Origin: Schmidtea polychroa
Lineage: Eukaryota
Assembly (NCBI GenBank): GCA_044892525.1
Contig: CM097885.1
Location: forward strand, 3,598,001-3,662,000
Length of the DNA stretch: 64,000 bases
Reading direction: 5' to 3'
The translations under genes were made by a program, and so were the position numbers. The first letter of the stretch is position 1. Each line of letters starts with the position of its first letter. The notes below the pieces were generated by a model. The model did no database searches. It had not been told where the DNA came from and saw nothing but the letters and a program-made list of their open reading frames with translations. Below are positions 7,714 through 13,700 of this stretch, in pieces.

Positions 7714-10700
7714 TTTTTTTACCCATTCGGTTACATCTTCAGTTAACGTAGGCCAAAAATATTTCTGTTTCATTCTTGCTAACGTCTTTTTCGATGACAT
7801 ATGTCCTCCCAATCTCCCATCGTGATATTGCGTTAGTAACTCTTTTCGTCGGTTTTCCGGTATACACATTAATCGTTTTTCCCCATCCATTATCAGCAAC
7901 CAATCTTTCTCTATAATATATCGGTGTCGGTGTTTATCCATATGTTCTTTTAATTTTTGGTCTTTCGCATATACCTCTGTCTTTCCGGTTTTTACATAAT
8001 CGATAATTTGTTTTAATTCCGCGTCCTCTTGTTGGTCCTTTCGTAATTGACAGAAATCCAAATCTTCCGCTACTATTAAGCATATGCGTTGCATTTCGGA
8101 ATCCACCAAATCTGGGAAAATAAATCTTGACATACAATCGGCGTTGGCATTTGCTCTTCCCGCTTTGAATTTTATAAATGGGGAGTATTCTTGCAATTGC
8201 ATGGCCCATCGCATCAGTCTACTGGACGCTTCTTTATGTTGCCCTAACCACACTAATGGTTGATGATCTGTGGTTATGCATATCTCATGTCCCCATAGTA
8301 AATATCGGAAGTGTTTGATAGCTTGTATTATAGCCAATGCTTCTCGTTCTGTTACCGAATAGTTCTTTTCGTGCTTTTTGAATGTTCGACTGTAATACCC
8401 GATTACTCTCTCTTTTCCCTCATCGTCTAATTGTCCCAGAATCGCGCCTGCCGCGTACCCGCTTGCATCCGTTGCCAATAGAAATGGCTTCTTAAAATCT
8501 GGGTGTACGAGGATAGGTGCTTCGATTAGTTTATCTCTCAGCGTTTCGAACGCCTGTTGTTGTTCTTTTTCCCAAATGAACGAAATATCCTTCTTTACTA
8601 ATTCCTGGATTGGTTTTGCAATTCCTGCATAATTTTTGATAAATTTGCGATAGTATCCGCATAATCCTAGAAATTCCTGAACTTGGGTGACAGTTTTCGG
8701 TGCTGGACATGTTTTTATTTTCTCAATGTTTCTTGGATCTGGCTCCTTTCCTTTAGCTGACACTATGTGTCCTAAAAACGTGACTTTTTCCTTTGCCCAA
8801 TCGCATTTTGATGGTTTGAGTTTGAGTTTCCACTGTCTTAATCTAATAAATACGTTTCGGATATCTTCCAGATGTTGTTCAAATGTCGCTGAATAGATTA
8901 GTAAATCATCAATATATACCATACATTGTTTGATTCCATGGGTGACAAAGTTCATACACCGTTGAAATGATGCTGGTGCGTTGGTCAGTCCAAATGGCAT
9001 TTTCCTGAATTGATATAGATCTCGTCCCAACGTGAAAGCTGTTTTCTCTTTGTCCTCATCTTTGACTTTAATCTGCCAGTATCCACTTTTTAGATCTAAA
9101 GAAGTAAAATATGCTGCCCCTTGCAACATCAATAACATCTCATTGATGTCCGGCAATGGATAGGTATCTCTCTTGGTCACTGCGTTTAACTTCCGATAAT
9201 CGATACAGAATCGTTGGGAGCCATCCTTCTTTTTCACCATGACCACTGGGAATTGCCAAGGTGAGCAACTTGGTTCGATTACTTTCGCGTCCAGCATCTT
9301 TTGTACTTCTGCTTCGGCTATTTCTTTTTGCATTTCTGCTAGCTTGTATGGTCTTAATGCAATTGGAGTTTCATCTATGAGGGGTATTGCATGTAGGGTA
9401 ACATCGCATGTACCCAAGTCTAAGTCTGAGATGGCGAATATATCTTTATATTCTACCAACAATCGGTGTAATTTTTTCTTTTCATTATTCGTCAACAACA
9501 TACTATCTATTGTCCATAATTCATCATCTTTGATCATCTCGTTGGTCACTTTCGGTAATTCTATGTCCATCATTGGGGTCAATCTTCCCAATTTTTCGTT
9601 CTCATAAATGATTTTGTCTTCCTCTTCGAAATTCGTGATGTTGAGCGGTATCACTCCTTCTTGGTTTATTGTGATTATTTCTCTTGCGAGTGGTAATTCT
9701 CGTCGCTTTTCGAATGACTTGCTTGGTTCAAAGATAACTTCTCCTTCCATACCCGTATCCACTTTTATCTGACAAATCATCTGCGATTTCGCTGGTACTA
9801 TTATTTTTTCTGGACATCTGATTACTGCATTCATTTTGCATATTCTACCGGTTTTGTCTTTTAGACACATAGTTGTTAAGTCTATTACGACTTCTTTTAA
9901 TAATTCTGGCATCAGGTCCGTTCCGATTATGCATGGTACGCTAAGTTTTGGTATTACTGCCAAATACGTTTCAATTTCGTTGTCCTGGTATCTCAATGTA
10001 GTCCACCATCTTCCGACCACGTCCACTGTTTCTTTACTACATGCTATGATGTGAATTGTTGTTGATTCGATATCTTTCCAGTGTTTACTGGGAATTTGAT
10101 TAATCGCTATCGCTGATACATTAGCTCCGGTGTCTATCATAGCATTGGTTTCTTTACCATTGATTTGAATCATAACTGTTACTGCTGGACCTCCAGGCAG
10201 ACTCATTGCTGCGATTGTTCTTACGTCATCTGCTTGATCTACACTTTTGGTACGTCGTGTCGGCATATAATGCATACCGGGTTGACTCGGTAATTGCGGA
10301 TACATATTTTGTGTCATGGTCAAAGCTGCTTGTGGTCCCACGATATCCGGTGGTATATAGCTTCCATTGGCGATCCAGGTGTTTGTCTTTTCCTTTTCCC
10401 AATATGGTGCCGTTTCCATTGGTTTTTCGTTTGGGTTTCTGTTTGGATAAAGACATTTATCGTTCCCGTTATCATCGTCGTCACTATCGCTGTTAGATGA
10501 TTGGCTTCTAAATCGGTCCAAGAATTTTGGCTTATTCTTTTTCAATTGTCGTCTTGTTGCTTCATCGTACATTACTTTCCGGAATCGTCTGCCTACTTCT
10601 TCGTCGGTTCCTTTAATCTTTGTTAATATTTTTATCAATCGCTTTATCCGATGAATGTCTTTTGAGTGGCCATGTAATACCATGGTCTTAGCTAAAAATG

Positions 10701-13700
10701 GTAAGAAACCTACTATCATTTTCCAGTTAACTTTCTTTTCCCGCTTGTATATATCGAAACAAGCTAACATTTGTGTTAGTATTACTCTGACTATCTGAAT
10801 TATGAGTATGATCCCTAATATCCCGGCCATCATTTGTCCAAAAACTAAGAATCTTCCCCACATTGCTTTCATCATGTTTGACGTAGCTTGTTGAAAATGG
10901 TCTGGCGATAATAGCAGCTCGTAATTCGGGCCTGATTGATAGTTGGTGCCCCCAGTTATTGTTACCATATTAGACAAAATGGATTCTCGTCTGGCTGGAA
11001 AGAGTACGTTAAGTCGTGCTGTTTCTAGATCTTCCGGGGAATACATACCACCGTTTGACACGTCTATAGGTTTGAAATCCAGCTCTGTGGCGAGTTCTAT
11101 TAATCCAAATTTCTTGGGCTCCTCGGATATGGTTTTTCCCGGTAACATCATCCATTTCCCATCGGGCCTTTCATATAAAGGTCCGTATGCATTAGAACAG
11201 TTAAAGAGATTTGGGTAGAAACCCACTGGATTCATAATTCTAGTGACTGGTTGGACGAATCGATTTTGTCCTTTATAACGGATTTCTAATTCATTTGCAC
11301 ATCTCTTTTCGGGTAGTATGGATTTTTCTGGCATTCGTGCATACGTCTTGGTACACTGGTATGTGTACATCACTTCTCCTACCATTCTACCAAAGTGTCC
11401 ATCTGGTAATGGGAGTGATGGCATCGTGTTATCTGGGTGCGTTATCGCAATAGCTAGCTTTGTTTTCAATATTTCTTTATTCAATGAACAATCGTTTTGT
11501 ATCAGATCGTAATATACTTTTTGCAAGGTCGTTTGTCCACGATGAAATAGAAAATCCATTTTATTATTTGCATATAAGTATAGTTTTACGTCCTCCGTTG
11601 CTATCTTTCCCACTGCTCTATCGATTATTTGTCTCGACATATAGATGCCTGCGTAATTGGTTTTATATACTATACTGTCACATTTGGTGGTTTCTTTCTC
11701 TTTGATAAACCTCATACCTAGATCTGGATCGTCTGTGATTAATGCTGTTGGTGTCTTCTGCGTTGAAAGTCTCTTTTCTCTGGGAGATGGTGGCATTGGT
11801 TTTCCATTTCGCATTCTCACTCTGTCGTTTCCATCCTCGTCGTTCTCGTTCTCATATATTTCTCCTTTTACTTCATTGAACAAAGCACTTTTTAACAGTT
11901 GGAGTCGGCATTTTTGGGTATTAGCTTCATAGATTATAGTTGATACTCCAGTCCTGCATACGTTTTCTGTAGCTTTACACGCTGGGTTGGTCTTCATTTG
12001 GTAATTATTTGCGTCAAATTGCGCTTCGTATTCTTTTAATTCGACCGTGTAAGACTCGATCACTACAACTCCCGATATTACCTCGCCTCGGATCGTATAC
12101 GTACCTCCGTTACATGACCCATCTGATGATTTTACTTTTCCGGCTACGTAAACACTTTCGGTTTTAATCATTCCAGTTTGTCCGTGAATTGTCACTCCGT
12201 TATGCATTTTTAGCGCTCCGGTTCTAAATAGCTCTTTACAATCCTCTCGTTGTATTGATACGATTTCCTTATCCAGACCGGGTAGTATAAGAGTCGAATA
12301 CGAATATTGTCCACAGTAATATGCGAGTACCTTTTTTGATACTACGCATTCCCTTGCTTGCGTTCTGATGAAATCTGATTCTTGATATACATGGTAAGTA
12401 ACTTTTGTTCTCACGATGTCCAATTTGTTGGGTGAGGCTTGTCTGCATTCTTCTATGTCTCTCAATGAGTATTTATCTCTCATTATCATATTATCACAAT
12501 CGTAGATGGTAAAACCTGTTGCTCCACTTGTGCACAACATCCATATCATCATAGTCATCATTAACGAATTTATTGATGCTTTTCTGCTTGCGGGATCTTT
12601 CATCGGTAGTTCCCATTCTAGTTCATTTAACAATTTTTTCAATCTAACTTGCATCGACCTTTCTTGCTCATTTTTCCGTGGCGCTTGTATCAGTCTTTTC
12701 CATCCTCCTGCACGAATAATATGTGGTTCAATAGTATTCTCTATGATTGAAACGGTCATTTCCACATGATTTGCAAATTGTTTATTTGGTATTTTCCTCG
12801 CGGCTAGTCCCATCAAATTATACATCAAATACGTGATTACCACTAGGTGATGTTCGTCATCATTTGCATTCGTCGTGAGCTGCTCAATCACTCTCTTTGT
12901 TTCATCCCAATCCGTTTTGGTGGTTTTCGTTTTCTCTTTGATTAACTTTGGGATTATCCCCGAAATGGTGTGCCATAATTGTCTAGCTTCCGTACTGGCT
13001 ACTTTCCGTTGCCACAAACGTCTAAGTTGTGGGTTTGTTATTATTAACATATCTTTTAACAATTCTCGTATCCATTTTTCTCCTCTTTCGATCGTTGGTT
13101 GGGCTTCCTTTAGATCCCATACTATTTTGTCCAATTTTTCTAATCGAACTTGCCCTTGTTCTTGCTTTAATTGTTCTTTGGTTTTGAACTCAGACTTTTC
13201 TCCTTGTTTCTTAGGTCTTCCTTTTGCCCGTTTTTCCATCATCGTTCCGGCTTCTCTGGTATTTTCGTAATTCGGATTTCTTTCGTTATCCGTTCTGGGT
13301 AATGAGCTATCGTTATTTCTTAGCCACTCATTCCATTCGTCTATTATTTTGTCGGTTTGACTTTCTGGTGTTACTTTCGTTGGTTCTCTTTGCTTCTGGA
13401 ATTGTTCATCCGTTTCGGTTTCCGTAGTATTGTCGATGATTTCTTTGATGTTCAGTTTCGTTGGTTGTTGATAACTCGTTGATGGCTGGTTATTAGTCCA
13501 CATTTCGGCTCCTGTCGGCCATCTCACTAATAGCGGTGATCTTTCTCCTGGTTCATCGTCACTATCTTCCAGGATTATCTCTTCAACTTCTTCAGTTTCA
13601 TTAGATTTACTTGGTGCTTTGTTCGGACTTGGAGTACTCAAACTGCCTTTTGTTGGTTTAGTAATTTTACTTTTCCTTTTTAACGGTTTTCCCAACGTTT

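What the first reader, a model, noticed from the sequence alone, without database searches (positions are those of the whole stretch)
10670..12575. Env-like glycoprotein embedded in frame between Gag and protease
Seen: with no stop or frameshift, the polyprotein passes from Gag through an internal signal peptide (..WMLCTSGATG|FTIYDC), a ~550-aa Cys-rich ectodomain with an REKR site in a low-complexity loop, and a TM helix, then returns to PR-RT. Known: retroviral and errantiviral env is a separate ORF 3' of pol, and a YDC-start Cys pattern is typical of chuvirus G / gB-like glycoproteins, also captured by some BEL/Pao elements. Inference: a flavivirus/alphavirus-like membrane-threaded polyprotein. 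Signal peptidase would release Gag, and Pol would stay attached to the Env tail until PR cleaves it, giving equimolar Gag:Env:Pol.
Basis: partly seen in the sequence, partly recalled or inferred. Interest (0 to 1): 0.92.

Follow-up and report, generated by a model that had tools for sequence, protein, structure and literature searches.

The report
Planarian giant retroelement's in-frame envelope gene
A 30-kb retrovirus-like element, apparently of the planarian "Burro" kind, carries a herpes-gB/chuvirus-type envelope protein in the same reading frame between its capsid and enzyme genes; the layout is real, conserved and under selection, but it was already described in 2019.

Summary

It is not peculiar to this copy. 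All 72 scored genomic copies keep env without stops, and 43 of them sit in a 4732-codon frame. Variant sites in env are 2 non-synonymous to 20 synonymous. A second family in the same genome (36% identity) and metagenomic relatives (27-41% identity) have the same order.

The element is a complete 29.8-kb Ty3/gypsy provirus with 3859-nt LTRs and a TTAT duplication.

It is already in print. Arkhipova and Yushenova (2019) reported env in frame between gag and pol in Schmidtea Burro elements. An eLife 2026 paper lists gB-type GAG-ENV-POL elements in flatworms.

The membrane-threaded polyprotein mechanism is plausible: the signal is conserved and there is one clear TM. It remains untested, and the REKR site is not conserved. 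Novelty: already known. Interest is modest.

The parts
20596..24454 (-). 5' LTR, 3859 nt. Its partner, the 3' LTR, lies 1535-5393 bases before the window start.
   Evidence: BLAST of the two flanks gave 99.97% identity over 3859 nt. The LTRs have TG..CA ends and the element is flanked by a 4-bp TTAT duplication.
7582..17709 (-). ORF1 of this copy, 3375 codons from stop to stop, first ATG at 17364: Gag, spacer, BCL2-like region, Env, PR, RT, RNase H and the IN zinc domain.
16435..17211 (-). Gag: Retrotrans_gag (residues 167-260) and three CCHC zinc knuckles (from residue 367).
   Evidence: Pfam PF03732 E 2.2e-9 and PF00098 E 2.2e-7; sequence.
12700..12918 (-). BCL2-like region ending in ..GGWKRL, about 50 aa upstream of the signal.
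   Evidence: Support is weak. Pfam Bcl-2 gives E 0.072, below the cut-off. The model has low confidence (pLDDT 51.9); its top Foldseek rows are Bcl-2/Bcl-xL but at E 0.6-2. The GGW motif recurs in 6 of 14 embedded forms. A BCL2-like motif is reported for Burro in PMC6431247.
12514..12600 (-). Internal signal-like stretch. Residues 1704-1732: a basic n-region (MKDPASRKASINS), a Met-rich hydrophobic core (LMMTMMIWMLC), then TSGATG.
   Evidence: Best 12-mer has Kyte-Doolittle 1.82. An equivalent stretch is present in 19 of 19 forms examined.
10852..12513 (-). Env ectodomain, 554 aa, class III (chuvirus G / gB-type) fusion glycoprotein fold.
11770..11781 (-). REKR motif in a low-confidence loop of the model (env residues 241-266), just before the long central helix.
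   Evidence: The motif is not conserved: 2 of 135 aligned rows.
10756..10851 (-). Transmembrane helix, residues 2287-2318.
   Evidence: It holds the only 19-mer of ORF1 with a negative rough insertion sum, and has Kyte-Doolittle 2.53. The model shows a helix over env residues 553-608.
10669..10731 (-). Juxtamembrane motif (WKMIVGFLPFLAK..), weakly hydrophobic. Relatives have W[KR]L.LGCCP[FL].A[KR] at this place.
   Evidence: Kyte-Doolittle 1.31 and rough insertion sum +7.35, so probably not a second TM.
9901..10176 (-). Aspartic protease (DTG at residue 2525).
   Evidence: PF00077 E 2.8e-9.
8185..9237 (-). Reverse transcriptase (YIDD) and RNase H.
   Evidence: PF00078 E 1.5e-35 and PF17917 E 4.1e-39.
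3510..7863 (-). Integrase (zinc domain at the end of ORF1, core in ORF2), followed by an ankyrin-repeat extension. In this copy the frame changes within 7582-7718.
   Evidence: PF17921 E 3.3e-14, PF00665 E 5.7e-13 and Ank_2 E 5.6e-18. The overlap of the two frames is seen.

Best explanation
The window holds a complete, very young insertion of a giant Ty3/gypsy provirus, about 29.8 kb, of the planarian Burro type. In this lineage a class III fusion glycoprotein of the chuvirus-G/gB kind, with its own signal peptide and transmembrane anchor, sits inside the single Gag-Pol reading frame between a BCL2-like domain and the protease.

Shown here: the identity of the fold; the in-frame position in many copies, in a second family of the same genome and in distant relatives; purifying selection on the env segment; and conservation of the signal-like stretch and of one TM.

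Inferred mechanism:
1. The polyprotein is made on ER-bound ribosomes.
2. The internal signal inserts with Gag..BCL2 on the cytosolic side.
3. The ectodomain is translocated. Signal peptidase probably cuts after ..ATG (in relatives, just before YDC).
4. The TM stops transfer, so PR-RT-RH-IN stays cytosolic, tethered to the Env tail until the element's protease releases it.
5. Gag, Env and Pol are therefore made in equal numbers at one membrane.
For: - One open frame from Gag to IN. PF24664 at 239.7 bits.
- Env model with mean pLDDT 88.9 and a 48-residue central helix.
- Copies: 72 of 72 scored have env without stops; 43 of 72 sit in a 4732-codon frame. 39 of 40 locus records are open across env plus or minus 500 codons; the two locus sets overlap.
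- Selection, in nine other copies ranked by DNA score and compared with the window copy: distinct variant sites in env are 2 non-synonymous to 20 synonymous, against about 3.7:1 expected from site counts. The flanks give 12:37 and 10:57.
- A second family in this genome has env 36% identical and the same order, GGWEKL, signal, env, TM, PR, in one frame.
- In distant relatives, env is followed in frame by PR-RT-RH-IN in 5 proteins, preceded by gag or CCHC in 3, and by Bcl-2 in 1.
- The 12 embedded forms fall on one side of a branch with SH-like support 99, against 103 free-length forms.
- The signal-like stretch with a small -1 residue is conserved.
- There is one strong TM. The second hydrophobic motif is too polar to span by a rough count.
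- The element has LTRs 99.97% identical, TG..CA ends and a TTAT duplication.
- Literature: PMC6431247 (passages) and the eLife 2026 paper.
Against: - No RNA or protein evidence was obtained. No RNA run was listed, and only contigs could be laid.
- Cleavage by signal peptidase is judged by eye with the -3/-1 rule only. No SignalP or DeepTMHMM was available.
- The hydrophobic core of the signal is short (about 11 residues) and Met-rich.
- Flank charges around the TM are positive on both sides in 10 of 11 forms counted (one has a net-neutral C-flank), so the positive-inside rule gives no help.
- A conserved second hydrophobic motif follows the TM. If it spanned the membrane, PR would be luminal.
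- The ectodomain has only one N-glycosylation sequon.
- REKR is not conserved.
- Trimer formation could not be tested, and fusion loops were not located.
- Equal amounts of Gag and Pol are unusual for retroelements and may need a correction that cannot be seen from sequence.
- Identity with the published Burro1 sequence could not be tested. In this family the TRAF/MATH domain is a separate downstream ORF, and the frame is 4732 codons, not the 4873 aa reported for Burro1.
Confidence: 0.7

Rival explanations
1. The hydrophobic stretch before the ectodomain is an uncleaved signal-anchor. Gag and Pol then stay joined through a luminal Env loop with two membrane spans, until the element's own protease cuts on the cytosolic side. 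Env would keep an N-terminal membrane anchor.
For: The hydrophobic core is internal and preceded by basic residues. In the second family it follows the BCL2-like GGW motif by only about 24 residues, the spacing of a tail anchor.
Against: In free-length viral homologues the same stretch is an ordinary N-terminal signal. A small residue sits at -1 before YDC in 18 of 19 forms, which fits cleavage. Class III fusogens are type I proteins with a free N-terminus (established knowledge).
Confidence: 0.15
2. Env is expressed mainly from a separate message (spliced or internally initiated) that starts at the Met 13 residues before the hydrophobic core. The in-frame position would then be incidental. 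The product would be Env-Pol or, after protease cleavage, Env.
For: An in-frame Met (residue 1704) precedes a complete n-h-c signal. Retroviruses splice env messages (established knowledge).
Against: No stop separates Env from PR in any of the 72 copies, so such a message would still read into Pol. The Met is not conserved in relatives. No joint that skips to env had support in the laid contigs, but those runs are not known to be RNA, so this is no test.
Confidence: 0.1
3. The second hydrophobic motif after the TM also spans the membrane, so PR-RT-IN would face the lumen and the element would need another route to assemble.
For: The motif is conserved in embedded relatives and reaches Kyte-Doolittle 1.3-1.7 in several of them.
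Against: It carries Lys/Arg and Pro in its middle. Its rough insertion sum is +5 to +8 (+17 in one form), against -0.9 to +3.2 for the TM. In relatives it holds a CC pair typical of palmitoylated cytosolic tails (recalled). Gag would be on the other side of the membrane from Pol.
Confidence: 0.04
4. The env segment is a decaying relic, or a passenger without function.
For: Only one glycosylation sequon. REKR is not conserved.
Against: Variant sites run 2 non-synonymous to 20 synonymous. 72 of 72 copies have no stop. The architecture is kept down to 27% identity. Ten cysteines of the family are nearly invariant.
Confidence: 0.01

Closest known systems
Burro / GYPSM1 giant Ty3/gypsy elements of Schmidtea mediterranea (Jurka 2007 and Grohme et al. 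2018, as cited in Arkhipova and Yushenova 2019, PMC6431247; passages read)
   Same: About 30 kb with LTRs, present in many near-identical copies. Gag has three CCHC knuckles. BCL2-like, ankyrin, TRAF/MATH and RING domains are present. Env is in frame between BCL2 and PR, with hits to mononegavirus fusion glycoproteins.
   Different: Here TRAF/MATH is a separate downstream ORF and is absent from ORF1. The intact frame is 4732 codons, not 4873 aa. No BIR or dUTPase hit was found at the thresholds used. Sequence identity to Burro1-4 could not be tested, so the family number is open. That paper likens env to gypsy Env (class I) by HHpred; the fold found here is class III.
GAG-ENV-POL 'errantiviruses' with HSV/gB-type ENV in Platyhelminthes, Nematoda and Bryozoa, including Smed_errantivirus_1 to 6 (eLife 2026, PMC13524379 / bioRxiv 10.1101/2023.10.26.564294; passages and supplement rows read)
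   Same: The same gene order and the same class of Env, in the same host species. By eye, the printed part of Smed_errantivirus_2 is nearly identical to the second family found in this genome (L043).
   Different: A 9-residue stretch of the window's env was not found in that paper's sequence table (0 hits). The nearest listed element by eye is Smed_errantivirus_5. The words polyprotein, fused, in-frame and single ORF do not occur in the main text searched.
Glycoproteins of Jingchuvirales (chuviruses) and related Monjiviricetes; Pfam PF24664
   Same: N-terminal signal followed by YDC, conserved cysteines, a central helix and a C-terminal TM. Best fold matches: E 4e-38, TM up to 0.67.
   Different: Those are free-standing genes of RNA viruses, about 650 aa long. 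Identity to the window's env is 18-28%. The embedded forms form their own branch.
Herpesvirus glycoprotein B (class III fusogen)
   Different: About 10% identity. gB has a large cytoplasmic domain and works with gH/gL. No such partners are seen here.
Atlas virus and other nematode belpaoviruses (PMC9094657; passages read)
   Same: Env is encoded in the same frame as Gag and Pol, as one polyprotein in an intact endogenous element.
   Different: The order is Gag-Pol-Env. Env is a phlebovirus-type class II fusogen. The element is BEL/Pao, not Ty3/gypsy.
Flavivirus, pestivirus and alphavirus structural polyproteins (working analogy only, from established knowledge)
   Same: Internal signal sequences and stop-transfer helices thread one polyprotein through the ER membrane. 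Host signal peptidase cuts on the luminal side and a viral protease on the cytosolic side.
   Different: There is no homology, and none of the cleavages is shown here.

Membership tests
Pfam PF24664 Monjiviricetes_fusion (chuvirus-type glycoprotein) | Score above the family's gathering cut-off | tested here: met
   239.7 bits against a cut-off of 27, E 6.1e-71.
Pfam PF24664 Monjiviricetes_fusion (chuvirus-type glycoprotein) | Signal peptide followed by Y/F-D-C, conserved cysteines and a C-terminal TM | tested here: met
   The consensus and the nearly invariant C72, C83, C108, C150, C218, C294, C358, C403, C421 and C455 come from a 135-row alignment.
Class III viral fusion proteins (gB, rhabdovirus G, gp64) | Shared multi-domain fold with a long central helix | tested here: met
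Class III viral fusion proteins (gB, rhabdovirus G, gp64) | Homotrimer | not testable with these tools
Class III viral fusion proteins (gB, rhabdovirus G, gp64) | Two hydrophobic fusion loops at the tip of domain I, and membrane fusion activity | not tested
Fusion activity needs an assay.
Ty3/gypsy (Metaviridae) LTR retroelement | LTRs with TG..CA ends, a target-site duplication, and the order PR-RT-RH-IN | tested here: met
Burro giant elements of dugesiid planarians | About 30 kb; Gag with three CCHC; BCL2-like, env in frame before PR, ankyrin, TRAF/MATH | tested here: met
   compared with the description in PMC6431247. TRAF/MATH lies in a different place.
Burro giant elements of dugesiid planarians | Sequence identity to the published Burro1-4 / GYPSM1 | not testable with these tools
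   No reference sequence is held. The Grohme 2018 paper is not in the library.
Insect errantiviruses (gypsy, ZAM) | env as a separate ORF 3' of pol, with a baculovirus-F-type (class I) Env | tested here: not met
   Here env lies 5' of PR in the same frame, and its fold is class III.
Membrane-threaded viral polyprotein (flavivirus-like logic) | An internal signal cleaved by signal peptidase, and a stop-transfer TM that leaves the downstream enzymes cytosolic | tested here: inconclusive
   The motifs are present and conserved. Flank charges are uninformative. There is no cleavage or topology experiment.

The most novel reading that the evidence does not exclude
The hydrophobic stretch has two jobs. 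It is the tail anchor of the BCL2-like domain that ends the cytosolic Gag-side product, and it is also the signal peptide of Env.

After signal-peptidase cleavage, Pol is no longer joined to Gag. It is joined to the cytoplasmic tail of Env. The enzymes would then reach particles as an Env-Pol fusion rather than a Gag-Pol fusion. I know of no retroelement for which this packaging logic has been described; none turned up in the passages I read.

Combined with expression in differentiated cells under PIWI control (BURRO1, PMC8532177, passages), the fusogen could carry the element from somatic cells back into neoblasts, the only dividing cells. That would parallel the soma-to-germline route of Drosophila gypsy/ZAM.
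Probability: 0.25. Interest if true: 0.7.

Novelty: already known. Interest (0 to 1): 0.3.

Why it matters
The layout itself is in print, so the scan adds no new kind of element.

What this check adds:
- Fold-level proof that the Burro-type env is a class III (chuvirus-G/gB) fusogen. The 2019 paper suggested the class I gypsy type.
- Evidence that the env segment is under purifying selection as strong as that on the neighbouring protease region.
- Evidence that the internal signal and the single TM are conserved wherever the gene is embedded.

This makes a concrete question testable: how does a retroelement assemble when its envelope protein splits Gag from Pol in one membrane-threaded chain? 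It also raises the question of whether planarian elements use the fusogen to move between cells.

Tried and rejected
- **RNA evidence:** no RNA holder was listed for window 9000-14000.
- **Laying runs:** four runs were laid on 7000-18500 and gave only short contigs of unknown library kind. No joint that skips env, or that lands just before it, had more than one low-depth contig. This says nothing about splicing.
- **52-nt skip:** a skip at 17746-17797, with GT..AG on the sense strand, was seen in three contigs of two runs. Reading the sequence shows it does not join the upstream frame to ORF1.
- **Furin site:** REKR is not conserved, 2 of 135 rows.
- **BCL2-like fold:** the alignment had 7 rows and the model is poor (pLDDT 51.9). 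Foldseek gave no match at E<=0.001, though Bcl-2/Bcl-xL head the list. The ESM Atlas look-up gave no lead; best score 0.85, unrelated families.
- **Spacer between Gag and BCL2:** Pfam gave only sub-threshold ubiquitin-like hits, E about 0.1.
- **Positive-inside rule:** uninformative.
- **Names of relatives:** 8 of the 10 clusters looked up carry no name. One cluster is named as a beetle glycoprotein. One (P0009) is filed under a Flavobacteriaceae MAG, probably contamination.
- **Earlier notes of this scan:** none found by place or by sequence.
- **Variant count:** used loci ranked by protein score, so it is biased for env. It is not used; one search replaces it.

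
Full report
**What is there.** The first 22 kb of the window have about 39% G+C, against 20-33% beyond. They carry long open frames on the minus strand only. One frame of 3375 codons runs from 17709 down to 7582.

Pfam finds the following in this frame:
- Retrotrans_gag at residues 167-260.
- CCHC knuckles from residue 367. The sequence shows three.
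- PF24664, Monjiviricetes_fusion (viral fusion glycoprotein): E 6.1e-71, 239.7 bits, best stretch 1983-2322.
- A retroviral protease at 2512-2603.
- Reverse transcriptase at 2825-2983, then RNase H.
- The integrase zinc domain at 3283-3331.

The integrase core and two blocks of ankyrin repeats follow in a second, overlapping frame (3510-7718). So this copy has a frame break inside the integrase zinc-binding region. It lies at a run of A. Contigs of other runs differ from the window by one base in length at that place.

**The env segment.**
- Residues 1704-1732 read like a complete signal: basic residues, a Met-rich hydrophobic core, then TSGATG.
- The mature part would start at FTIYDC.
- The ectodomain (1733-2286) has 554 residues, 14 cysteines and one N-x-S/T sequon.
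- The only strongly hydrophobic 19-mer of the whole frame starts at 2293, with Kyte-Doolittle 2.53.
- A weaker motif follows at 2327-2347, with Kyte-Doolittle 1.31. A rough insertion sum, using a hydrophobicity scale recalled from memory, gives +7.35 against -0.14 for the TM.

**Fold.**
- A HMMER search of 1.84 billion representatives found 1056 relatives at E<=0.001.
- With 135 of them aligned, AlphaFold2 gave a model with mean pLDDT 88.9 and pTM 0.67. It has long beta hairpins, a 48-residue central helix (327-374) and a terminal TM helix.
- Against predicted viral structures, the best matches are glycoproteins of chuviruses and chu-related viruses (E 4.4e-38, TM up to 0.67). Rhabdo-like, nyavirus and bornavirus G and herpes gB come further down.
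- The family profile also finds only gB among PDB sequences, at the central helix (33 hits, E from 0.01).

This is a class III fusogen of the chuvirus-G/gB kind.

REKR lies in a low-confidence loop (env residues 241-266) before the central helix. This is roughly where some herpes gB proteins carry a furin site (recalled). The motif occurs in only 2 of 135 aligned rows and not in the second family of this genome.

**Not a one-off.**
- The window's own genome has 781 Mb and four very large contigs.
- The env DNA has at least 40 matches at 99-100% identity, out of 623 first-look candidates.
- By protein search, 72 of 72 scored copies have env without stops. 43 of 72 sit in an open frame of 4732 codons. 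Three, including the window, sit in a frame of 3375.
- 39 of 40 locus records are open across env plus or minus 500 codons; the two locus sets overlap.
- Nine other copies, ranked by DNA score, were compared with the window copy. Distinct variant sites in env are 2 non-synonymous and 20 synonymous, where site counts predict about 3.7:1. The flanks give 12:37 and 10:57. The copies therefore diverged while the frame, env included, was under purifying selection.

**Other families and relatives.**
- A second family in the same genome has an env only 36% identical. It shows the same local order in one frame: a GGWEKL motif, a hydrophobic signal, YDC.., a TM, the juxtamembrane motif, then the protease.
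- Among the best database hits (27-41% identity), Pfam finds env followed in frame by PR-RT-RH-IN in five proteins. Env is preceded by gag or CCHC in three and by Bcl-2 in one.
- In a FastTree tree, the 12 embedded forms lie on one side of a branch with SH-like support 99, against 103 free-length forms of 560-800 aa. The tree is unrooted and the free set may include endogenous copies.
- Every one of the 13 embedded and 6 free-length forms examined has a hydrophobic stretch in the 32 residues before Y/F-D-C. A or G sits at -1 in 18 of 19. The window copy is the exception, with three extra residues (FTI) and an A-T-G site before them.

**The element.**
- The LTRs are 3859 nt long and 99.97% identical: window 20596-24454, and 1535-5393 bases before the window start.
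- They start with TG and end with CA. The element is flanked by a TTAT duplication.
- The whole insertion is about 29.8 kb and very young.
- It also carries a RING ORF between the 5' LTR and gag, a TRAF-like ORF (RING plus MATH, E 3.6e-27) and a coiled-coil ORF downstream of the polyprotein.

**Comparison with print.**
- Arkhipova and Yushenova (2019, PMC6431247; passages read) describe the Burro/GYPSM1 elements of Schmidtea mediterranea. They exceed 30 kb, occur in thousands of copies, and have three CCHC knuckles and BCL2-like, ankyrin, TRAF/MATH and other motifs. [quoted passage not shown]
- An eLife 2026 paper (PMC13524379; passages of the bioRxiv version; supplement rows) reports that elements of Platyhelminthes, Nematoda and Bryozoa carry only HSV/gB-type ENV in the order GAG-ENV-POL. 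It lists six S. mediterranea elements. The printed part of one of them is, by eye, nearly identical to the second family found here. This, together with the genome's size and shape, makes S. mediterranea or a very close relative the likely host (inference).
- A 9-residue stretch of the window's env is not in that paper's sequence table.
- In hookworm belpaoviruses, a single Gag-Pol-Env polyprotein is known (PMC9094657; passages).
- BURRO1 RNA is intestine-enriched, rises on smedwi-2 knock-down, and is called highly abundant and active (PMC8532177; passages).
- Dezordi et al. 2020 and Wang and Han 2020 were seen only as search listings. Grohme et al. 2018 is not held.
- In the passages and word searches named above I found no discussion of how the in-frame env is processed. 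This is not a claim that none exists.

**Mechanism.** The steps are inferred from the conserved signal, the single clear TM and the type I nature of the free viral homologues.
1. The signal inserts co-translationally, with Gag..BCL2 on the cytosolic side.
2. The ectodomain enters the ER lumen and is probably freed at its N-terminus by signal peptidase.
3. The TM halts transfer.
4. PR-RT-RH-IN remains cytosolic on the Env tail until the protease acts.

Two consequences follow. Pol would be linked to Env rather than to Gag. The Gag-side product would end in a hydrophobic tail right after a BCL2-like domain, which is the arrangement of tail-anchored BCL2 proteins.

The BCL2-like assignment rests on weak evidence:
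- Pfam E 0.072 in the window and 0.00096 in one relative.
- A GGW motif in 6 of 14 embedded forms.
- A poor model whose top, non-significant matches are Bcl-2/Bcl-xL.
- The published annotation.

Weak points of the mechanism:
- Flank charges do not tell the sides apart.
- A conserved second hydrophobic motif follows the TM.
- The ectodomain has only one glycosylation sequon.
- There are no RNA or protein data.
- Trimerisation was not tested.

**Verdict.** The identification as a chuvirus-G/gB-like fusogen is confirmed. The polyprotein-threading model is plausible but untested. The layout is already known for this element family, so the finding ranks low for novelty and modest for interest.

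Noticed in passing
window 7582-7718 (about 7713-7720): The frame break of this copy lies at a run of A inside the integrase zinc-binding region. Contigs of other runs differ there by one base in length. 3 of 72 scored copies share the 3375-codon frame. It could be a real mutation that was copied, or a homopolymer sequencing error.
   Followed up: partly
window 3675-4526 (-): Near the end of the polyprotein, after the integrase and ankyrin blocks, two moderately hydrophobic stretches (Kyte-Doolittle 1.59 and 1.73) flank about 250 residues that contain several cysteines. The first stretch looks like a signal. This may be a second membrane-threaded module. There is no Pfam hit.
   Followed up: no
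window 5190-6440 (-): Two blocks of ankyrin repeats are fused behind the integrase in the same frame (Ank_2, E 5.6e-18).
   Followed up: no
window 1519-2952 (-): A separate TRAF-like ORF, 478 aa with a RING finger and a MATH domain (E 3.6e-27), lies downstream of the polyprotein and inside the element. In the published Burro1 the MATH domain is said to lie inside ORF1.
   Followed up: partly
window 19770-20273 (-): An ORF of 168 aa with a C-terminal C3HC4_3 RING (E 3.7e-11), of the kind found at the end of IAP proteins (recalled), lies between the 5' LTR and gag.
   Followed up: no
window 18600-19191: A tandem array of 74-nt units lies in the leader between the 5' LTR and gag.
   Followed up: no
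window 17746-17797 (-): A 52-nt stretch with GT..AG on the sense strand is skipped in three contigs of two runs of unknown library kind. Removing it does not join the upstream open frame to ORF1. ORF1 is also open for 115 codons before its first ATG.
   Followed up: partly
window 21133-21924 (-): An open frame of 264 codons with a hydrophobic N-terminus lies inside the LTR, so it is present twice per element. There is no Pfam hit.
   Followed up: no
proteins P0009, P0053, P0137: P0009 is a 2627-aa Env-PR-RT-RH-IN relative filed in NCBI under a Flavobacteriaceae MAG, probably eukaryotic contamination of the bin. P0053 joins DUF5641 to the glycoprotein. P0137 joins immunoglobulin domains to the glycoprotein and may be a host fusion.
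   Followed up: no
window 10669-10731 (-) and relatives: The juxtamembrane motif after the TM is conserved in embedded relatives as W[KR]L.LGCCP[FL].A[KR]. The window family has FL in place of the CC pair.
   Followed up: partly
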